This document shows, in pieces, positions 5,149 through 44,203 of a DNA stretch of 44,203 nucleotides. The DNA lies in contig CAZSFS010000002.1 of assembly GCA_964606255.1 (NCBI GenBank), positions 1 to 44,203 on the forward strand, read 5' to 3'. The notes under the pieces are model-generated. The model was given only the letters and a program-made list of their open reading frames with translations, made no database searches and was not told the origin of the DNA. The first letter of the stretch is position 1. Every line of letters begins with the position of its first letter. Origin of the DNA: an uncultured Candidatus Saccharibacteria bacterium. Its GTDB lineage: Bacteria; Patescibacteriota; Minisyncoccia; Phycocordibacterales; CSBR16-119. A program made the translations under genes and the position numbers.

Positions 5149-6360
5149 ATGTTTAAATATTTAGTTTTTGAAGTTGTCTCTGCTGTGGTTGGCTTAATCG
5201 CCTTTCTCTTTCTTGTAAGATATTTGTGGAAGAAAGGGTATCTACGTTCGATGTCAAGTGAAAAGAAACTCTATATACCAGCAGTTCTTCTTCTTATTGC
5301 CATTTTTACAGGACTGATATCAAATAAAACATATCCTCCAGATTTTGCCATGCCAGCTTTTATGCACTCACATGCTCCGGGTGGATTTCCGCCATCTATT
5401 CCGTTTGCCAAAATTTTAGAATTTTTTAAGTATGAGAATCGTTTTGAAAGAATTGATGATATTGGTGCAGATCCAATTATGGTTCCCAAGATACCGCAGT
5501 TACCTGACACAGATGGTGTTGTAAGGATTAATTTAACTGCGAAAGAGGTTATTTCAGAGATTTCTCCTGGAATTTATTTTAATTACTGGACATATAATAA
5601 TCAGGTTCCTGGTCCGATGCTTCGTATACGTGAAGGAGATACTGTAGAACTAACTCTGACAAACGACCCATCGAGTCTTCACCATCACAATATTGATCTT
5701 CATGCAGTCACTGGCCCTGGAGGTGGTGCATCCGTAACCCATGTTGCGCCAGGAGAAACAAAAACATTTAAGTGGAAAGCACTTGCACCGGGACTATATG
5801 TGTACCACTGTGCAATGCCAAATGTTTCTACTCACAACTCACACGGACAATACGGTATGATCTTGGTTGATCCTAAAGATGGTTTTAGTGAAGTTGATAA
5901 AGAATTCTATGTTATGCAGGGAGAGCTCTATACAGTGGGGCAACTTGGTAAAAGGGGATTGGTTGCATTTGATTCAGATGCACTTCTTGATGGAATTCCT
6001 AATTATGTAACCTTTAATGGCAAAATAGAGACAATTCCACGAATGCACGCACGAGTGGGTGATAGGATTCGTATCTATGTTGGTAATGGCGGAGTGAATC
6101 TTATATCGTCGTTTCATGTTATTGGTGAGATTTTTGACACAGTATATCCAAATGCAAGTATGGGTGGGGCACTTGAGTACAATACCCAAGCAACGGCAGT
6201 TCTTCCAGGAGGTGCCAGTATTGTGGAATTTGTTGTCGACGTGCCTGGTAAATATTTACTCGTCGATCATGCATTAGCAAGAATGAACAAGGGTGCGTGG
6301 GCGGTACTTGAAGTAACGGGTGACGAAAATCTTGAGATTTTCAGTGCGGTTAAAAATTAA
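5149..6360 (+). CDS. nirK: Copper-containing nitrite reductase (NirK) with an N-terminal two-TM extension
   Basis: 'HHHNIDLHAVTGPGGG' matches the HNIDFH motif that carries a T1/T2 Cu His and the catalytic Asp. 'YVYHCAMPNVSTHNSHGQYGM' matches the His-Cys...His...Met T1/T2 ligand block. 'SSFHVIGEIFD' and 'LLVDHALARMNKGAWAVLEVTG' match the C-terminal cupredoxin domain. Confidence 0.88.
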   Translation: MFKYLVFEVVSAVVGLIAFLFLVRYLWKKGYLRSMSSEKKLYIPAVLLLIAIFTGLISNKTYPPDFAMPAFMHSHAPGGFPPSIPFAKILEFFKYENRFERIDDIGADPIMVPKIPQLPDTDGVVRINLTAKEVISEISPGIYFNYWTYNNQVPGPMLRIREGDTVELTLTNDPSSLHHHNIDLHAVTGPGGGASVTHVAPGETKTFKWKALAPGLYVYHCAMPNVSTHNSHGQYGMILVDPKDGFSEVDKEFYVMQGELYTVGQLGKRGLVAFDSDALLDGIPNYVTFNGKIETIPRMHARVGDRIRIYVGNGGVNLISSFHVIGEIFDTVYPNASMGGALEYNTQATAVLPGGASIVEFVVDVPGKYLLVDHALARMNKGAWAVLEVTGDENLEIFSAVKN

Positions 6361-6764
6361 AAACAGTTCTACTTTACTTCTGGGATAAATGCTTCTTTTG
6401 TTTTTTGGTGGGAGAAATATCAAAAATTTCTTTCGGATGCAAAACCAATAGCCCTCTGACGATTCTGTCAGGTAAATTTTACTCACCCACGTAACTGCCT
6501 CCTCAAAATTTTCTCCAGCAGTGAAAATTTCTACCTCACCCTTAATTTGATATCCCATCATTTTAGACCAACACACTAACGCCACATTTTTGTTATGTGA
6601 AATATTTTGCAAGGTTTTATCCATAAAATAATTTATCAGCCAAATATTTTTTTACCCACTACTCGTATAGTAGAGACGGGCATAACGTTTATTCCGTGGT
6701 TACCTTGCGTTGCCAGAGCTTTTGAGGTTGCCTCCAAAATAAATTTTTCTATATGTTTTTCCAT
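6274..6764 (-). pseudogene. PNPOx-like (pyridoxamine 5'-phosphate oxidase family) flavoprotein gene, disrupted by a frameshift in an A7 run
   Basis: The N-terminal piece (MEKHIEKFILEATSKALATQGNHGINVMPVSTIRVVGKKIFG) ends at TGA 6636-6638. The continuation (..NIWLINYFMDKTLQNISHNKNVALVCWSKMMGYQIKGEVEIFTAGENFEEAVTWV) is in another frame. One extra A in the run at 6647-6653 would fuse the two. The 3' end is uncertain because the ORF runs 87 nt into the nirK 3' end. Confidence 0.55.
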
Positions 6765-37347: not shown

Positions 37348-40300
37348 ATGAAAAACTTAGATTCAAAAGATTTCAATAAAATATCGATCGAACTCGCCTC
37401 ACCAGAAAAGATTGAAGAATGGTCTTACGGAGAAATCCAAAAACCAGAAACCATCAACTACCGAACTGGTCGCTCAGAACGTGGCGGACTTTTCGATGAG
37501 AAAATTTTCGGTCCAGAAAAAGACTTCGAATGTTACTGCAAAAAATACCGTGGCGTTAAGTATAAAGGTATTGTCTGTGAAAAATGTGGTGTCGAGGTAA
37601 CCAAAGCCATCGTTCGTCGTGAACGCATGGGTCACATTCGACTTGCAACGCCCGTTGCGCACATCTGGTTTCTACGTGGCGTACCATCTCGCATGAGCGT
37701 TTTCCTAAACATCAACGTCTCCGATCTTGAGAAGGTTATTTATTTCGCTGGATACATCATCCATAAAGTAAACGATGATGAGAAAAACCGAATCATCAAA
37801 GATCTTGAAAATGAATACAAGAACAAAATTAAAAGTTCTCAGGACGACGAGACAAAAGAAAAACTTAAAGAATTGTTCTCGAACACTAAGCGCGAACTTG
37901 GTGAGATCGTCGTTGGAAAAGTTCTAAACGAAATCGAATACCATCACTACTCAATGCGTTACAGTTCAGCTTTTGAAGCTTCTATCGGAGCTGAGGCTAT
38001 TTACAAAGTCTTCCAAAATACCGATCTAGAAAAACTTCGTGCCGCAACTGAGGCCATGATCGAAAAGGCTTCAACTTTGGACAAGGTTAAACTCAAAAAA
38101 CGACTCGGTCTAATTCGCTCAATGATCAACTCTGGCGTCAGACCTGAATGGATGTTCCTAAAGAACTTGCCGGTTATCCCACCAGGACTTCGTCCGATGG
38201 TTGCTCTTGAAGGTGGCCGACACGCGACATCTGACATCAACGATTTGTATAGACGTGTCATCAACCGAAACAATCGTTTGAAAAAACTTCTTGAAATCAA
38301 TGCTCCAGACGTAATCTTGCGTAACGAAAAAAGAATTCTACAGGAAGCCGTTGATGCCTTGATCGATAACTCGATTGCTAAATCAGAAGCGGCGACAAAT
38401 CAGTCTCAGAAGCGAGCGCTAAAATCTTTGTCTGACAACTTGAAATCAAAACAAGGGTTGTTCCGCCAGAACTTGCTCGGAAAACGTGTCGACTACTCTG
38501 GACGATCTGTTATCGTTGTCGGTCCACAGCTCAAACTCAATCAATGTGGTCTGCCGAAAAAAATGGCTCTTGAGCTCTTCAAGCCATTCGTCATTTCAAA
38601 GATTCTCGAAAGAGAATACGCATTTAACATTCGTGGTGCAAATAAACTCATCGAAGATGGAGTAGCTGAAGTTTGGGCAATTCTTGAAGAAGTAATTCAA
38701 GGTAAATATGTACTTCTAAACCGTGCTCCAACTTTGCACCGACTCGGTATTCAGGCGTTCAATCCGATTCTTATCGAAGGTAAGGCTATCCAAGTTCATC
38801 CACTCGTTTGTGCGGCGTTCAACGCTGACTTCGACGGAGACCAGATGGCCGTTTACTTGCCACTTTCTGAAGCGGCTCAAGCCGAAGCGCGCGATCTTAT
38901 GGCTTCAAATAAAAACTTGCTTCGACCTCAAGATGGTAACCCGATCGTTAATCCAGCTCAGGACATAGTTCTCGGATGTTTCTGGATGACTCGAATGATT
39001 GATGGTGAAAAGGGCGAAGGTAAATATTTCGCTTCACCAAATGAAGCCATGACTGCATATGATTATGGTAAGGTTTCTTTCCGCGCCAAGATCAAAGTTT
39101 TGCCAACTGACACTCCTCGATATGACAAGTTTGGTGGCAAGCTATTCGAAACAACCATTGGACGATTGATGTTTAACTCTAGTCTTCCAAAAGATTTCCC
39201 ATTCATAAATGAGGAAATGTCAAAGAAGAGACTTTCTCGACTTGTGGATGAAGTCATCACCAAGTACGGTGTTGATGAAACTCCGAAAGTTCTCGACATG
39301 ATCAAGTCTTTCGGTTACAAATATATCACCAAGTCAGGCATTAGTTGGGGAATCGATAATGTTGTTGTGCCAAAAGATAAACCACGAATCGTAGCAGAAG
39401 CTCGCGCTAAAGAATCCGAAATCATTTCTCAGTGGAACGAAGGACTTTTGTCTGAAGATGAAAAATATCAAAAGACTCTTTCTGTTTGGGAAGCCGCCAA
39501 GTCTGAAATTCAGAAGGCTATCCCACAAACATTGAAACAGAATGGTTCAACTAAAGACATGCTTGATTCTGGAGCTCGAGGTACTCTTGCCCAGGTTGTG
39601 CAAATGGTTGGTATGAAAGGTCTCATTGTTAACACTTCTGGAAAGACTCTCGACTTCCCAATCATTCCTTCTTACAAAGAAGGCTTATCTCCACTTGAAT
39701 ACTTCATTACGACTCACGGTTCTCGAAAAGGTCTAGCCGACACAGCCCTTAAAACTGCTCAGGCTGGATACCTTACACGACGTTTGGTTGACGTTTCTCA
39801 GGACGTCGTTGTGCGTGAAGAAGATTGTGGATCAAAAGATTCAAAAGTTGCGACAGCGGAAAATATTTCAGGTCTAGAAATTTCTTTGGCTAAAAATATT
39901 TTCGGACGAACTTTGTTCGAAGATGTCAAAGATGCTAGTGGCGAATTACTCTACAAGAAAGGCACGATTATCGATAAAGATATTGCAGCTCGTATTGAAG
40001 AAGCTGGAATCAAAGAAGTTCGAGTTCGAACAATCCTTACATGTAAATCTCTTCACGGAGTTTGTCAGCAATGTTACGGACTTGATCTTGGAAGATCAAA
40101 ACTCGTCAAACTTGGCGAAGCTGTCGGAATTATTGCTGCTCAAGCGATCGGTGAACCAGGTACACAGTTGACTCTCCGAACCTTCCACCAGGGAGGCGTG
40201 GCCGGAGCATCCGACATTACCCAAGGTCTTCCTCGCGTCGAAGAAATCTTCGAACGTCGCAATCCAAAAAATCCTGCAATCGTTTCAGAAACTGACGGCG

Positions 40301-40989
40301 AAGTATTTGATATTCGCGACGAAGGCAAAGATAAGATCATCAAAGTTCTGTCTGATTCAAAAGGTGACAAGCCTGCCCGGCCAGGGAAAGATAACGAAAT
40401 GGAATATGTTATCCCATTCCGCCGAACTGCTGTCGTTAAAAAAGGCGACAAAGTAAAGAAAGGTCAACTTCTAACTGATGGTTCTGCGAAGATTAATGAA
40501 ATCTTTGCTTACGGTGGAAAAGAATTGGCCGAAAACTACATCATTGACGAGATCAACAAAGTTTACGAACTTCAGGGTGCTCCAATCGGACGCAAACACT
40601 TGGAAATCATCGTTCGTCAAATGTTCTCTCGAAAGAAAGTTCTTGATCCGGGTGACACGATGTTTTCTCCAGGCGAAGTCGTTGAACACGTTGAATTCGA
40701 AAAAGAAAACGAGATTATCAAGAACGAAGGTGGTAAACCGGCAACTGGCGAGTTCATTGTTCGTGGTATTACCGACGTGTCTTTGACCACAAAATCATGG
40801 CTATCTGCTGCGTCATTCCAAAACACTAACCGCGTTCTTATCAACAACGCTATTAAAGGTGGCGTTGATAACTTGCGAGGTCTAAAAGAAAACGTCATCA
40901 TTGGTCGTCTAATTCCAGCTGGAACAGGTTTGCGCGGCGAATACAAACATCTAGACAAGGACGAATTTGGTGAAGAAGCTGTTTTTTAG
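37348..40989 (+). CDS. rpoC: DNA-directed RNA polymerase subunit beta'
   Basis: The Zn finger '[23 protein letters not shown]' is present, along with '[15 protein letters not shown]', the catalytic '[11 protein letters not shown]' and '[25 protein letters not shown]'. Confidence 0.97.
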   Translation: [1213 protein letters not shown]

Positions 40990-41034
40990 ATAAAACTAGA
41001 AAACAGATTAAAAATCTAATAATATAAGGAAATG

Positions 41035-41117
41035 ATCCCGATAGTGATCGCGGTCGCTTTCGGGAAACGGACCGACATTGATTAATTTTAAAGACCGCGA
41101 CCTATCACTATCGGGAT
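41035..41117 (+). promoter_or_regulatory. Long inverted repeat (~20-bp arms) between rpoC and dnaG; its 3' arm covers the dnaG start codon
   Basis: ATCCCGATAGTGATCGCGGTC (41035-41055) pairs with GACCGCGA(CCT)ATCACTATCGGGAT (41093-41117). The dnaG ATG is at 41116. Confidence 0.6.
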
Positions 41118-42825
41118 GACCCCTGTTGAACAAATCAAAGATCGGTTGAACATTGTCGACGTTGTGTCGATGTATGTGACTCTTTCACCTGCGGGTAAAA
41201 ATCTGAAGGGTAAATCGCCATTTACAAACGAACGAACTCCGTCGTTTTTTGTGGCACCTGACAAAGGCTTGTATCACTGTTTTTCGACAGGCAAGGGCGG
41301 AGATATTTTTACCTTTGTTCAAGAAATGGAGGGCTTGGATTTCCGGGGCGCGCTCAAAGTCTTGGCTGAGCGCGCCGGAGTCAAGCTTGGACCCGTAGAT
41401 GTCAAAGTAAGTGAACTTCGTGATCGGTTGTATGATTTGACAGAAAAAGCCACACAGGTATTTGAAGAAGCTCTGGCGAATAACGAAGAAGCGAAACAAT
41501 ATCTACGTGATAGAGGTGTCGAAGATCACGTAATTCGTGACTTTCGTATTGGATATGTACCAGGAACTTGGCGACATTTGTACGATGCTCTCAAGAAAGA
41601 TTTTTCTGACGAGGATATTGTGATCGGAGGGCTTGGTAAGAAAAGCGAGAAAGGGATTTATGATACTTTTCGTGATCGAATCATGTTTCCGATTATGGAT
41701 TCTGCTGGAAGACCGATCGCTTTTTCTGGAAGGATTCTTCACGATGATGGCAAGTCGGGCAAATATGTAAACTCACCTGATACGCCGCTCTTTAACAAAT
41801 CTGACGTGCTTTTTGGTCTTGATAAAGCCAAGAATTTCATTCGCAAATATAATTTCACAACTTTGGTCGAAGGACAATTTGACGTTGTAATGATGCATCA
41901 GGCCGGATTTCGAAATACTGTTGGAGTCTCCGGAACAGCTTTGTCTGATCAACTTGTTGGCGCAAACGGAGTAAACAATTTGGGGCTCGTCAAAAGACTT
42001 TCAAATAATTTGATTCTGGCTTTTGATGCTGACTCGGCTGGAATCAAAGCGGCTAAGCGTTCAGCGCATATCGCTCTTACACTTGGTATGGATGTAAAAG
42101 TCGTTGCAATTCCTGGCGCTAAAGATCCGGCCGAATTTATAAAATCTTCTGGTAAAGATGCTTGGAGTGCTCTCTTGCGTGAAGCCAAACACATTATTGA
42201 ATTCGAAACAGATAAAATAAAAGAAACCGCCAAAGACGATAGAGATTTGGGAAATAAAATACGCGCAGAGGTTCTACCGGAAATTGCTATCCTCGGTAGT
42301 CAAATCGAAAAATCATATTTTATCAAAAAAGTTTCTGAAATGACCGGACTCCCCGAAGGGGCGATGTGGCAAGATCTAGAGAAAATAAATATTCCAAACC
42401 AAGAAAATTTAGATATCAAAGAAAAGACAAAACAAGAAATTGGTCGCACAGAAAATATTGAGCGGAAAATTATGGGGATCTATTTTACCAAGCCCGATGA
42501 AAAAAATATTGAAGTTGAACTTTCAAAAATTATAGGTGAACAGAGACTCAAAGATCTTGTTGTCAAATATGAATCAGTAAAACAAGAATTAATATTCGAA
42601 CAAGAAATGGCGGCTGATGAAGCAGGGGAGATTACTCTCCTGGAGATGCTCAAAAATCTCGAAGAAGATTATTTATCCAGAAAAATTGATGAAGTAAAGA
42701 TTAAACTAAAAAATGCCGAGAAAGAAAGTAATGATGGTGAAGCAGAAAAACTATCAGTCGAGTATCAACATTTGGTAAAAAGATTGGCCGAGATTAAAAA
42801 TAGTCGTCATATTAACAAATTTTAA
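41116..42825 (+). CDS. dnaG: DNA primase
   Basis: The Toprim/RNAP core shows 'DRIMFPIMDSAGRPIAFSGR', 'KYVNSPDTPLFNKSDVLFGL', 'LVEGQFDVVMMHQAG' and 'LILAFDADSAGIKAA'. The N-terminal finger region 'SPFTNERTPSFFV...YHCFSTGKGGD' is degenerate. Confidence 0.9.
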   Translation: MTPVEQIKDRLNIVDVVSMYVTLSPAGKNLKGKSPFTNERTPSFFVAPDKGLYHCFSTGKGGDIFTFVQEMEGLDFRGALKVLAERAGVKLGPVDVKVSELRDRLYDLTEKATQVFEEALANNEEAKQYLRDRGVEDHVIRDFRIGYVPGTWRHLYDALKKDFSDEDIVIGGLGKKSEKGIYDTFRDRIMFPIMDSAGRPIAFSGRILHDDGKSGKYVNSPDTPLFNKSDVLFGLDKAKNFIRKYNFTTLVEGQFDVVMMHQAGFRNTVGVSGTALSDQLVGANGVNNLGLVKRLSNNLILAFDADSAGIKAAKRSAHIALTLGMDVKVVAIPGAKDPAEFIKSSGKDAWSALLREAKHIIEFETDKIKETAKDDRDLGNKIRAEVLPEIAILGSQIEKSYFIKKVSEMTGLPEGAMWQDLEKINIPNQENLDIKEKTKQEIGRTENIERKIMGIYFTKPDEKNIEVELSKIIGEQRLKDLVVKYESVKQELIFEQEMAADEAGEITLLEMLKNLEEDYLSRKIDEVKIKLKNAEKESNDGEAEKLSVEYQHLVKRLAEIKNSRHINKF

Positions 42826-42839
42826 AAATAACGTATACT
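42812..42839 (+). promoter_or_regulatory. Putative rpoD promoter (TTAACA-16-TATACT), with the -10 ending 7 nt before the ATG
   Basis: TTAACA is at 42812-42817 and TATACT at 42834-42839; the ATG is at 42847. Confidence 0.45.
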
Positions 42840-42846
42840 AAACGCC

Positions 42847-44175
42847 ATGCCTAAATCTAAAAAGAAAGTTGTAAAAAAGGTCTCTAAAAAAGCCAAGAAA
42901 CCAATCAAAAAACCAATCAAGCCTGTCCGGCCAGGGAAAGTAAAAAAGGCCAAGAAACCTTTAAAGCCTGCCCGTCTGACCGGCCAGGGGCCAGGGAAAA
43001 AGGTCGTCAAGAAACCTATCAAGCCTGTCCGGCCAGGGAAAGCCATTAAAAAGGCCAAACCTGCTCCAAAGCCAAAAGTAAAAGCCGAGTCCAAGAATCC
43101 AAAAGTCATGGCCATAAAGGCCAAAATTGATGATTTGGTGACCAAAGGCAAGAAAAGAGGCTTCATCACCTATGACGAGATTTTGAAGAATTTCCCAAAT
43201 ATTGAAACCGACGTCATTATGCTCGATGATCTGTACGCGCAATTCATGGAGGCTTCGATCGATGTGATTGAGGGTGGAAATTTGCTCGACATGGATGTCA
43301 ACGACAAGAAGTCTATCGAAAAGTATTCGAAAGATAAAAAATCTCGCGACTCGATTCAGATGTATCTCAAAGAAATCGGACAGTATCCACTCATCAAAGC
43401 TTTTCAGGAAAAAGATTTGGCCAAAAGAATTGAACTTGGTGATGTCGAAGCCAAAAACTTACTTGCTCGCGCGAACTTGCGTCTCGTTGTTTCGATTGCA
43501 AAGAAATACGCTGGTCGTTCATCAGACCTGACACTTCTCGATCTTATCCAAGAAGGAAACCTCGGCCTATTTAAAGCCGTCGAAAAATTCGATTGGAAAA
43601 AAGGCTACAAATTCTCGACCTATGCGACTTGGTGGATTCGTCAATCAATCACACGTGCGCTTGCTGACCAATCTCGCACCATTCGTATTCCAGTTCACAT
43701 GGTGGAAACAATTTCCAAATATAAACAAGTTTACCGAAGACTTTTTCAAGACTTGGGACGCGAACCTCTGGCTGAAGAAATTGCAACAGAAATGGGCGTC
43801 GAAGTAGAAAAAATTCACGTTATTGAAAAGATCAGTCAGACCACGGCGTCACTTGAAAAACCAATTGGTGATGACGAAGACAAATCGACCCTCGGTGAAT
43901 TTATTGCTGATGACAAAATCATGCGACCGGATCAAGAATCTGCTCAGCGAATTCTTTCTGACCAAATCAGAGAAGTTCTAAACGAGCTCACTCCAAAAGA
44001 AAAGAAAATTCTTGAGATGCGCTATGGACTCGAAGATGGTATTCAGCATACACTCGAAGAAGTCGGTCACGAATTCGGTGTTACTCGCGAACGTATTCGA
44101 CAAATCGAAGCCAAAGTCCATGAAAAACTTCGTTCAAACGAAAAGATCATTCGACTCCGGAATCACTTCGATTAA
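42847..44175 (+). CDS. rpoD: Primary-type sigma-70 factor with a Lys/Pro-rich polycationic N-terminal extension
   Basis: Region 1.2 is '[14 protein letters not shown]'. Region 2 is '[52 protein letters not shown]'. Region 4 is '[23 protein letters not shown]'. The first ~85 aa are K/P/V/A repeats ([11 protein letters not shown]). Confidence 0.93.
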
Positions 44176-44203
44176 AAATCACTGTTATTAACTCCTTGCT
44201 GAA

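What the first reader, a model, noticed from the sequence alone, without database searches (positions are those of the whole stretch)
40369..40390. GC-rich 22-mer shared in-frame between rpoC and the rpoD N-terminal repeats
AAGCCTGCCCGGCCAGGGAAAG in rpoC (40369-40390) encodes K-P-A-R-P-G-K inside a variable loop, '...[17 protein letters not shown]...'. It recurs with a single C/T difference at 42919-42940 and 43021-43042 in rpoD, where it encodes K-P-V-R-P-G-K. A locally duplicated or expanded version occurs at 42964-43000 (AAGCCTGCCCGtctgaCCGGCCAGGggCCAGGGAAAA). A 21/22 match between two unrelated genes cannot be chance, and the motif is ~65% G+C in an AT-rich genome. It contains a small self-complementary core (CCTG-yCCGGC-CAGG) with CCWGG- and CCGG-type sites. 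Several explanations are possible: a short sequence that spreads by insertion or gene conversion and is tolerated in-frame; a nucleotide-level signal such as a binding or methylation site carried inside the RNAP genes; or a shared peptide module (KPxRPGK) with a function in the RNAP holoenzyme.
Basis: seen in the sequence. Interest (0 to 1): 0.6.

Follow-up and report, generated by a model that had tools for sequence, protein, structure and literature searches.

The report
Fifteen-base palindrome inserted inside genes
The sequence shared by rpoC and rpoD is one copy of a 15-base GC-rich palindrome that has inserted itself about two dozen times, always keeping the reading frame, into essential genes of this tiny Saccharibacteria genome; it is far shorter than the mobile DNA elements used for comparison here and still differs between strains.

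Summary
The unit is a 15-bp block, (G)CCTGNCC|GGNCAGG(G/T). The 14-bp palindrome occurs 20 times in this 540-kb Candidatus Saccharibacteria genome (about 0.007 expected) and 0–3 times in 40 relatives. Sister species show clean 15-bp gaps at 13 sites, in rpoC, dnaE (two), gyrA, ssb, pgk, gltX, argS, dnaJ, dus, FAD oxidase, ksgA (30 bp) and the dCTP-deaminase end. Pro-x-Arg-x-Gly always uses the same codons, including the rarest Arg codon, so identity is at nucleotide level. The same block forms 5-aa insertions in other families of the order. Five independent copies are nested at the centre of another copy. One is a strain polymorphism at the finding's own rpoC site, seen in four JGI assemblies. 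Independent assemblies rule out artefact. No mobilising enzyme was identified. Best reading (0.68): a minimal mobile palindrome, frame-neutral because 15 = 3×5 and filtered by selection. This scan earlier noted larger in-frame hairpin elements in other Saccharibacteria.

The parts
40371..40386 (+). rpoC copy: the 14-bp palindrome CCTGCCCGGCCAGG (40372-40385) plus one flanking G on either side. The inserted block is 15 bp, with boundaries uncertain by 1 nt. It encodes P-A-R-P-G in a variable loop of RpoC domain 5.
   Evidence: All five same-genus orthologues read GAY-AAR|AAA-GAY with a clean 15-bp gap, and G004 blastn shows the same gap. In a conspecific strain (four JGI assemblies, 97.6% identical) a second 15-bp copy, GCCTGACCGGCCAGG, sits at its dyad at window 40379.
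42921..42936 (+). rpoD copy 1 (CCTGTCCGGCCAGGG, T5 variant), encoding P-V-R-P-G in the Lys-rich N-terminal tail. It lies in the duplicated 31-nt unit 42910-42940.
   Evidence: G001, G002, G003 and G005 have no counterpart. G004 has a possible decayed remnant, TCTGTCCGCGCAGG. The alignment is ambiguous in this low-complexity tail.
42967..42996 (+). Nested pair in rpoD. The outer copy CCTGCCCG...GCCAGGG (42967-42974 plus 42990-42996) is split at its centre by the inner copy TCTGACCGGCCAGGG (42975-42989). The whole is read as [12 protein letters not shown].
   Evidence: The same architecture is seen in KsgA, in the rpoC of the JGI strain, and in G132 and G170. The inner copy differs by synonymous point changes between strains.
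43023..43038 (+). rpoD copy 3 (CCTGTCCGGCCAGGG), in the second copy of the duplicated 31-nt unit 43012-43042.
37348..40989 (+). Host gene rpoC (RNA polymerase beta', 1213 aa).
   Evidence: Pfam RNA_pol_Rpb1 domains 1-5.
42847..44175 (+). Host gene rpoD (primary sigma factor, 442 aa) with a polycationic N-terminal tail that holds four copies.
   Evidence: Pfam Sigma70 r1.1, r1.2, r2, r3 and r4. The exact protein is found on 15 independent contigs.

Best explanation
The element is a minimal mobile DNA element, a 15-bp GC-rich near-palindrome: 5'-(G)CCTGNCC|GGNCAGG(G/T)-3', with 7-bp inverted arms. SHOWN: it has been added as a block of exactly 15 bp at more than 20 unrelated places in this Saccharibacteria species and at other places in scattered lineages of the same order. 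SHOWN: because 15 = 3 x 5, every insertion preserves the frame whatever its phase. The surviving copies sit in termini, Lys-rich tails and variable loops of essential proteins. They are mostly read as P-x-R-x-G or L-x-G-Q, and rarely in the third phase, which gives Trp, Cys or a TGA stop. INFERRED: that pattern reflects purifying selection acting on insertions that are random with respect to phase. SHOWN: new copies come from ectopic donors. The inner and outer members of nested pairs belong to different sequence variants, and the family has variants that co-vary at position 5 and position 15. SHOWN: the centre of a resident copy is the strongly preferred target. INFERRED: insertion is catalysed in trans by a dimeric enzyme that recognises the palindrome. 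The evidence is that 12 symmetric positions are invariant, the 2 symmetric positions N5 and N10 are free, and resident copies are hit at the dyad. That enzyme has not been identified. The rpoC/rpoD 22-mer identity is simply this element landing between Lys codons (AAG|AAA) in both genes.
For: Enrichment: 20 exact sites against about 0.007 expected. It is the top-ranked 14-mer in the genome, six control palindromes give 0, and the reversed control gives 0 in 401 genomes. Nucleotide-level identity: 13 of 31 P-x-R-x-G peptides use CCT..CGG.., although CGG makes up 5% of Arg codons. Insertion: G004 has clean 15-bp gaps at Dus, rpoC, ArgRS, FAD oxidase, PGK, GluRS, DnaJ, DnaE (two sites), GyrA and SSB, and a 30-bp gap at KsgA. 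The dCTP-deaminase end has a clean 15-bp gap in G006 but aligns ambiguously in G004. The rpoC gap is present in five species. Other lineages: 5-aa insertions in RpoB, GAPDH, MiaA, the RpoD tail and a second Dus position in other families. Distribution is patchy: 20 of 401 genomes of the order, with 10 copies in G176 and 8 in G219. Nesting: five independent events, all at the centre. About 0.0008 such events would be expected among 22 uniform insertions in G000, and 2 are observed there. Ongoing activity: a strain polymorphism at window 40379, seen in four JGI assemblies. Young family: the mismatch spectrum is 20, 3, 7 for 0, 1 and 2 mismatches, against 0, 0-3, 3-13 for controls. Phase bias is 15:6:2, chi-square p = 0.003. 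Orientation relative to the coding strand is about 10:10. Not an artefact: the exact L23, RpoD, ThyA-neighbour, TpiA-neighbour and GyrA-neighbour loci come from tens of independent Logan and JGI contigs at 96.5-100% identity, and all carry the copies wherever the site is covered.
Against: No mobilising enzyme was found. rve and resolvase families are absent. The two Y1/HUH transposase-like ORFs are flanked by their own, different hairpins, and the motif-free G004 has three homologues. GIY-YIG paralogues are also present in G004. There is no consistent target-site duplication, and the insert boundary is uncertain by 1 nt. No target consensus is apparent beyond a G or T at the junction, from inspection of the flanks. 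Two sites are filled in G000 and in the more distant G005 (and G003 for one of them) but empty in the closer G004 and G006. The 14-mer is 100% conserved at these sites while the flanks have diverged. That requires either repeated precise hits or losses at the same nucleotide, or DNA-level constraint, and a purely neutral selfish model does not predict it. Fifteen base pairs is far below the size of any transposable element with a characterised mechanism.
Confidence: 0.68

Rival explanations
1. The palindrome is a functional DNA site: the binding or cleavage site of a dimeric protein, for example a nucleoid-organising, segregation, uptake-signal-like or modification site. Selection or biased gene conversion would maintain it, and insertion would only be the way new sites arise.
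For: Twelve symmetric positions are almost invariant, and variation is concentrated at the two symmetric positions N5 and N10. The 14-mer is perfectly conserved, including synonymous positions, at sites shared by G000, G003 and G005 despite 27-33% flank divergence. There is almost no pool of decayed copies. At two positions G004 has possible decayed counterparts where G000 is intact. Orientation is unbiased and the sites are scattered across the genome. The copy number, about 20 per genome, is in the range of matS, NBS or SBS-type sites (my own knowledge).
Against: The function would have to tolerate nested insertions that split the outer site. Point-mutational origin is essentially never seen: nearly all copies are 15-bp insertions. 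Closest relatives with near-identical gene content have zero copies, and no cognate protein specific to motif-bearing genomes was found. Between strains, the two changes seen at fixed positions roughly match my own rough estimate of about three expected. The G004 'remnants' cannot be distinguished from noise as a class. One site per 25 kb is far below known uptake-sequence densities (my own knowledge).
Confidence: 0.15
2. The 15-mers are excision footprints (scars) of a larger cut-and-paste or site-specific element. Its two 7-8-bp ends are left behind, and only frame-preserving scars survive in genes.
For: The structure is palindromic, equal to two short inverted ends joined head to head. The length is constant and there is no target-site duplication. 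Nesting is consistent with re-insertion and re-excision at an old scar. No autonomous copy is required in the present genome.
Against: There is no excess of orphan half-sites: 39 against 33-41 for control words. No interrupted copy was seen in G000, in more than 60 strain contigs or in other genomes. Intergenic copies with shared flanks share only 24-90 bp, so no parent element is apparent. A large insertion in rpoC, dnaE or gyrA would be lethal before it could excise. Inner and outer members of nested pairs are different variants, which fits copy donors better than scars of one element.
Confidence: 0.09
3. The sequence encodes a selected peptide module (KPxRPGK / PGRSGK) with a function in RNA polymerase or in nucleic-acid-binding proteins, and codon identity is incidental.
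For: Fourteen or fifteen of the coding copies are read as P-x-R-x-G, often followed by K, in basic tails of RpoD, L22, L23 and L4.
Against: The same codons are used every time, including the rarest Arg codon. The same DNA is read as L-x-G-Q or W-P-x-R in other hosts, and one copy lies in a tRNA fragment. Orthologues function without it. The hosts are functionally unrelated, including PGK, Dus and FAD oxidase.
Confidence: 0.02
4. It is an assembly, library or chimera artefact.
For: The genome is a fragmented MAG of 57 contigs. The constant length would preserve frame trivially.
Against: The same copies occur in tens of independent assemblies from different runs and projects. Copies carry inherited point variants between strains. 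There is a phase bias. Copies are shared at orthologous sites between species.
Confidence: 0.01

Closest known systems
Rickettsia palindromic elements (RPEs)
   Same: Both are palindromic repeats in a reduced genome. Both insert in frame into unrelated, often essential, protein genes and are translated, apparently at positions compatible with protein fold. RPEs integrated 44 times in R. conorii, nearly half in ORFs (PMC10969869).
   Different: RPEs are about 150 bp, fall into ten families and each encodes a conserved peptide of tens of residues. They carry a CGTC tag (PMC3733652). This element is 15 bp (5 aa), has no CGTC or GTAG tag, shows dyad-nested insertion, and lives in an unrelated phylum.
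REP elements and RAYT (Y1 HUH) transposases (REPtrons)
   Same: Both are short GC-rich palindromes dispersed in many copies and regarded as non-autonomous mobile DNA. Some REPs lie inside replication and repair genes (PMC3733652). G000 does encode two Y1/HUH transposase-like ORFs.
   Different: REPs are 20-40 bp, mostly extragenic, and end in GTAG or CGTC. RAYT genes are flanked by their cognate REPs. Here the Y1 ORFs are flanked by other hairpins (GAGGTnnnACCTC) and are equally present in motif-free G004. The element has no tag, is 15 bp long, and 21 of about 24 copies are in coding sequence.
Yeast mitochondrial GC clusters (for example in var1), and byp elements
   Same: Both are short GC-rich palindromes in an AT-rich compact genome. 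Both are polymorphic in-frame insertions in a protein gene, are regarded as transposable, have an unresolved mechanism, and can merge or nest (PMC8811140).
   Different: GC clusters are longer and variable in sequence, usually intergenic, and have AG/TAG terminal repeats read as target duplications. Some are bypassed in translation. The present element has one fixed length that is a multiple of three, no consistent duplication, and is bacterial.
Larger in-frame GC-rich hairpin elements of Saccharibacteria noted earlier in this scan (unpublished AI notes)
   Same: Same phylum, GC-rich palindromes, in frame in housekeeping genes, nesting, and no classical transposase found.
   Different: Those elements are 55-115 nt or more, with a shared core plus private stems partly copied from the target. 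This element is a bare 15-mer with no private stem. No sequence match to this scan's indexed earlier findings was found. Any relationship is untested.

Membership tests
REP / REPtron (RAYT-mobilised palindromes) | Length of 20-40 bp, forming an imperfect stem-loop | tested here: not met
   The block is 15 bp in every clean comparison. As a single strand it could form only a 4-bp stem.
REP / REPtron (RAYT-mobilised palindromes) | Conserved GTAG (or CGTC) tetranucleotide at one end | tested here: not met
   The ends are (G)CCTG... and ...CAGG(G/T). No GTAG or CGTC is present in the element or in its conserved flanks. The definition is from PMC3733652.
REP / REPtron (RAYT-mobilised palindromes) | A RAYT (Y1 HUH) gene flanked by the cognate repeats and co-occurring with the family | tested here: not met
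   Two Y1_Tnp ORFs are present, but they are flanked by GAGGTnnnACCTC hairpins, and homologues exist in motif-free G004.
MITE | Terminal inverted repeats | tested here: met
   The whole element consists of two 7-bp inverted arms, CCTGNCC / GGNCAGG.
MITE | Target-site duplication and a related autonomous IS with matching ends | tested here: not met
   There is no consistent duplication. G...G fits the C5-type copies, but the A5-type copies are G...T, and empty alleles fit G+14-mer in four cases and 14-mer+G/T in two. There is no excess of half-sites and no parent element. rve and resolvase are absent.
Rickettsia palindromic elements | In-frame insertion of a palindromic repeat in unrelated protein genes, absent from orthologues | tested here: met
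Rickettsia palindromic elements | About 100-150 bp, sequence homology to RPE families, CGTC tag | tested here: not met
   The element is 15 bp with no CGTC. RPE size and tag are taken from PMC10969869 and PMC3733652. Sequence homology to RPEs was not computed.
DNA uptake sequence (DUS/USS-type) | High density (about 1 per kb), arising mainly by point mutation, shared by all close relatives with the same uptake machinery | tested here: not met
   Density is 1 per about 25 kb. Origin is insertional. Copies number 0 in G001, G002, G004 and G006. Density figures for known DUS/USS are from my own knowledge.
Palindromic protein-binding site set (parS/NBS/matS-like) | Symmetric conserved half-sites with free central or spacer positions, and a cognate DNA-binding protein | tested here: inconclusive
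   The symmetric conservation pattern is met. No cognate protein was identified, and positional clustering is not testable in a 57-contig MAG. Mapping to G004 shows the sites on all four large contigs.
Transposon excision footprint | Existence of the full-length element whose ends equal the two halves | tested here: not met
   Orphan half-sites are at control level. No interrupted copy was seen in any strain contig.

The most novel reading that the evidence does not exclude
The 15-bp palindrome may be the smallest self-propagating DNA unit yet seen. It would be both the cargo and the preferred target of an undescribed palindrome-recognising activity that opens DNA, preferentially at the dyad of a resident copy, and writes in a fresh 15-bp copy from an ectopic donor. 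There would be no terminal tags, no target duplication and no linked transposase gene. That would be a new mode of transposition or templated insertion operating inside essential genes of Saccharibacteria. It might also be the seed from which the larger in-frame hairpin elements of this phylum grow by repeated nesting.
Probability: 0.3. Interest if true: 0.88.

Novelty: new variant of a known kind. Interest (0 to 1): 0.68.

Why it matters
Selfish palindromes that live inside protein-coding genes are known from Rickettsia and from fungal mitochondria, and how they move is still unresolved. Here the phenomenon is reduced to a bare 15-bp unit. That unit has clean empty sites in sister species, two or three sequence variants, a well-defined preferred target (the dyad of a resident copy), and a live polymorphism between strains at 97.6% identity. 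This makes the mechanism directly testable: a resident copy on a plasmid is a ready-made insertion trap. It also shows that RpoC, RpoD, DnaE, GyrA, SSB and ribosomal proteins of an ultra-small symbiont acquire 5-residue loops from DNA-level drive rather than from protein-level selection. That matters for reading lineage-specific insertions in CPR proteins and for alignment-based phylogeny. A fixed, frame-neutral, 5-aa insertion activity could also be of practical interest.

Tried and rejected
1. rpoC/rpoD-specific signal: rejected, because the motif lies on 14 contigs in 18 or more genes.
2. Peptide-level conservation: rejected by codon identity and by copies read in other phases.
3. Rfam family for the non-coding copies: only neighbouring tRNAs were found.
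4. Larger parent element in G032, G132 or G219: the shared flanks are only 24-90 bp of hairpin-rich spacer.
5. Native 'home' gene for the sequence across the phylum: the singles lie in unrelated genes of GC-richer genomes, and some are chance matches. Several singles within the order are likewise ungapped chance matches (G363, G347, G188).
6. Enzyme search: 98 G000 ORFs lack a G004 homologue and none looks like a transposase by inspection of their first 60 residues (they were not run against Pfam). Y1_Tnp is present but not discriminating. rve and resolvase are absent. GIY-YIG next to the C28 copy has paralogues in G004.
7. Extinct family in G004: there is no excess of decayed copies, so the two apparent G004 remnants remain only suggestive.
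8. A different palindrome playing the same role in G004: none found.
9. Presence/absence polymorphism at the thyA, PGK, GyrA, ArgRS, L4, L23 and L22 sites in strains of 96.5-100% identity: none, all are filled.
10. Metagenome scan for filled or empty rpoC alleles with degenerate flanks: no hit. The genome-contig scan found two empty alleles.
12. Literature: no description of such an element was found.
13. One search was a malformed query and gave no result.
Full report
OBSERVATION. The 22-mer is present at 40369-40390 (rpoC) and, with one C/T difference, at 42919-42940 and 43021-43042 (rpoD). None of 100 dinucleotide-preserving shuffles gave a match. The region at 42964-43000 is not a loose expansion. 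It is one copy (42975-42989) inserted in the centre of another (42967-42974 plus 42990-42996). The two host genes are RpoC and the primary sigma factor.

THE MOTIF IS GENOME-WIDE. The window is contig C2 of a 540-kb, 57-contig, 41.6% G+C genome that is 89% complete. Its sister G004 is deposited as an uncultured Candidatus Saccharibacteria MAG. The 14-bp near-palindrome CCTGNCCGGNCAGG occurs 20 times on 14 contigs. From base composition I estimate about 0.007 expected. It is the most enriched 14-mer in the genome, and six control palindromes of the same composition give zero exact hits. The hosts are ordinary housekeeping genes: RpoC, RpoD, DnaE (two sites), GyrA, SSB, ribosomal proteins L4, L22 and L23, GluRS, ArgRS, PGK, DnaJ, KsgA, Dus, dCTP deaminase and an FAD-linked oxidase. 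There is also a small membrane protein, and one copy sits in a duplicated tRNA-Glu 5' fragment next to a GIY-YIG ORF.

IDENTITY IS AT NUCLEOTIDE LEVEL. In 14 of the 20 exact sites (15 of 23 coding copies once nested and near-exact copies are counted) the palindrome is in phase 0. It is read as P-x-R-x-G in either orientation: KP[AV]RPGK forward, PGR[SA]GK reverse. Six copies read L-x-G-Q and two read W-P-x-R. Of the 31 P-x-R-x-G pentapeptides in the crude proteome, 13 use CCT..CGG.., although CGG is the rarest Arg codon at 5% and CCT makes up 20% of Pro codons. This rules out a selected peptide with incidental codon identity.

EACH COPY IS A 15-BP INSERTION. All five same-genus RpoC orthologues read GAY-AAR|AAA-GAY with nothing in between. 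I rebuilt the closest complete sister genome, G004, from fetched loci. Blastn then shows a clean gap of exactly 15 bp at Dus, rpoC, ArgRS, FAD oxidase, PGK, GluRS, DnaJ, both DnaE sites, GyrA and SSB, and a 30-bp gap at KsgA, where one copy is nested in another. The dCTP-deaminase end is a clean 15-bp gap in G006 but aligns ambiguously in G004. The low-complexity tails of RpoD, L22 and L23 also align ambiguously. The boundary cannot be fixed to better than 1 nt. G+14-mer fits PGK, GyrA, ArgRS, the dCTP-deaminase end and all nested cases, where it places the insertion exactly at the CC|GG dyad. 14-mer+G/T fits Dus and DnaJ, whose flanks have diverged. No consistent target-site duplication exists, and I see no target consensus in the flanks beyond a G or T at the junction.

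FAMILY STRUCTURE. Variation is concentrated at the two symmetric positions 5 and 10, mostly as C to T, and at position 15. A C5...G15 type and an A5...T15 type co-vary, as subfamilies of a mobile family do. The perfect palindrome CCTGGCCGGCCAGG was not seen in G000 or in the copies listed within the order. It does occur once each in two genomes of the phylum-wide sample, G452 and G515. Decayed copies are scarce: 20, 3 and 7 sites with 0, 1 and 2 mismatches, against 0, 0-3 and 3-13 for controls. Orientation relative to the coding strand is about 10:10. The phase distribution 15:6:2 departs from uniform (chi-square p = 0.003). That fits a filter against the phase that yields Trp, Cys or TGA.

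DISTRIBUTION. Among 40 relatives the count is 0-3. Among 401 genomes of the order, 20 have at least one copy, led by G176 with 10, G219 with 8 and G274 with 4. The reversed-pattern control is zero in every genome. In those genomes the block again forms 5-aa insertions relative to G000 and G004 orthologues. Examples are the RpoD tail (KPARPGK) and GAPDH in G176, RpoB and MiaA in G274, another Dus position in G024, and more. Some singles in GC-richer genomes are ungapped chance matches. Outside the order, 9 of 150 Patescibacteria genomes have one or two copies and none has many. No common 'home' gene emerged.

NESTING AND A LIVE POLYMORPHISM. Five independent nested pairs exist: rpoD and KsgA in G000, G132, G170, and the rpoC of a conspecific strain. 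The inner copy is always at the centre of the outer one. In the three pairs from this species, the inner copy is of a different variant from the outer one. Under uniform insertion, about 0.0008 such events would be expected among 22 insertions in G000. The rpoC case is decisive for mobility. Four JGI assemblies that are 97.56% identical to window 38862-44203 carry acaagCCTGCCC[GCCTGACCGGCCAGG]GGCCAGGGaaag. RpoC is 1218 aa there, against 1213 aa in the window.

NOT AN ARTEFACT. The exact L23 and RpoD proteins and neighbours of other sites were found on tens of independent Logan and JGI contigs from different runs. At 96.5-100% identity every contig that reaches a site carries the copy. The only differences are point changes, such as C to T at N5 in the L22 and ArgRS copies.

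UNEXPLAINED. The thyA-junction copy is filled in G000, G003 and G005 but empty in G004 and G006. The FAD-oxidase copy is filled in G000 and G005 only. At the DNA level G006 and G004 are the closest relatives of G000. The flanks have diverged right up to the edge of the palindrome, while the 14-mer is identical, synonymous positions included. Either the same nucleotide position was hit or precisely vacated several times, or the palindrome is held constant at the DNA level. At G000 C4:6226 and at rpoD copy 1, G004 has what look like decayed counterparts. As a class these are not above noise. By my rough estimate about three changes at fixed positions would be expected between strains, and two are seen, so I see no clear sign of constraint within the species.

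MECHANISM. I commit to a trans-mobilised minimal palindromic element (0.68). The shown steps are block insertion, frame neutrality, ectopic donors, preference for the dyad of resident copies, and recent activity. The inferred steps are recognition by a dimeric enzyme and selection acting as the filter on phase and position. The enzyme is unknown. G000 has two Y1/HUH transposase-like ORFs with an NHYH motif. They are flanked by their own GAGGTnnnACCTC hairpins, of which there are nine genome-wide, and G004 has three homologues. rve and resolvase families are absent. GIY-YIG paralogues are shared with G004. None of the 98 ORFs absent from G004 looks like a transposase by inspection of their first 60 residues. 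The genome is incomplete, so an enzyme on unassembled DNA, a plasmid or a phage is possible. The rivals are a selected DNA site (0.15), an excision scar (0.09; half-sites are at control level, and no parent element was found), a peptide module (0.02) and artefact (0.01).

COMPARISON WITH KNOWN ELEMENTS. In behaviour it is closest to Rickettsia palindromic elements and to yeast mitochondrial GC clusters (PMC10969869; PMC8811140). In form it is closest to REPs (PMC3733652). It fails the defining features of each family: size, GTAG/CGTC tag, cognate flanking RAYT, target-site duplication and a parent IS. Three literature searches found no description of such an element in Saccharibacteria or elsewhere. 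Earlier notes of this scan describe much larger in-frame GC-rich hairpin elements in other Saccharibacteria genomes. They are unchecked leads, and a look-up of this scan's indexed earlier findings by sequence found no match. They do suggest that this 15-mer is the minimal form of a phenomenon that recurs in the phylum.

Noticed in passing
window 41020-41117 (between rpoC and the next gene, dnaG-like): An inverted pair of the 14-mer ATCACTATCGGGAT sits about 70 bp apart, and the downstream copy ends exactly at the ATG of the next gene. The 14-mer has 13 copies genome-wide, usually as such inverted pairs directly upstream of start codons. G004 has the same family and a related one, ATCCCGTTAGAGAT, with 19 copies. 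It looks like a conserved divergent promoter or leader cassette.
   Followed up: partly
G000 C1:26692, C7:176, C11:56 and 4714, C24:1659, C25:5796, C29:2779, C54:1343: This is a terminator-like hairpin family with an invariant apical core CCGCGTTTGACGCGG and locus-specific outer stems, in 8 copies. It probably corresponds to the nested-hairpin terminator repeat already followed up in this window (note e1-3388055).
   Followed up: no
G000 C28:6110-6513: A duplicated 5' fragment of tRNA-Glu(ctc) is interrupted in its D-loop by a 15-mer copy. It is followed by an 84-aa GIY-YIG-like ORF (6182-6433) and then the intact tRNA-Glu (6441-6513). In G004 the locus lacks the ORF and the tRNA is inverted. 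This looks like a small mobile nuclease cassette associated with a tRNA gene.
   Followed up: partly
G000 C6:15377-15982 (+) and C8:9923-10591 (-): There are two Y1/HUH (IS200/RAYT-like) transposase ORFs of 201 and 222 codons (stop to stop). Each is bracketed by GAGGTnnnACCTC hairpins, of which nine occur genome-wide. G004 has three homologues and 6-8 such hairpins. This looks like a small REPtron-like system separate from the 15-mer.
   Followed up: partly
G000 C4:2488/2544, C10:1630/1686, C14:11445/11501, and singles on C1, C7 and C46: Inverted pairs of CCCCCACACCTA lie about 56 bp apart and enclose AT-rich DNA. This may be a small MITE-like or regulatory element family.
   Followed up: no
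G000 C1:19247, C5:3682 and 10919, C31:4764 and 5000, C44:2046: A repeat of roughly 100 nt containing CGCGACCCCGCCTC occurs in 6 copies with conserved flanks (ggtcacaaataatttt...). It is also present in G004 and may be a small RNA or a leader element.
   Followed up: no
window 42847-43101: The RpoD N-terminal tail is polycationic (about 40% Lys) in all six species of the genus. It is poorly alignable between them and is a repeated landing place for the element, in G000 and independently in G176.
   Followed up: partly
L084-L087 (G219), L081-L083 (G032), L097-L098 (G132): In these genomes several copies lie in hairpin-rich intergenic spacers, some as tandem pairs 7 bp apart (G219 C1 and C8) or beside tRNA genes. 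They share 24-90 bp of flank with each other.
   Followed up: partly
G000 C3:14584-16758 and C11:2502-2601: Runs of N, which are withheld or unassembled stretches, interrupt an ORF on C3. A 100-bp stretch of C11 does not align to strain contigs.
   Followed up: no
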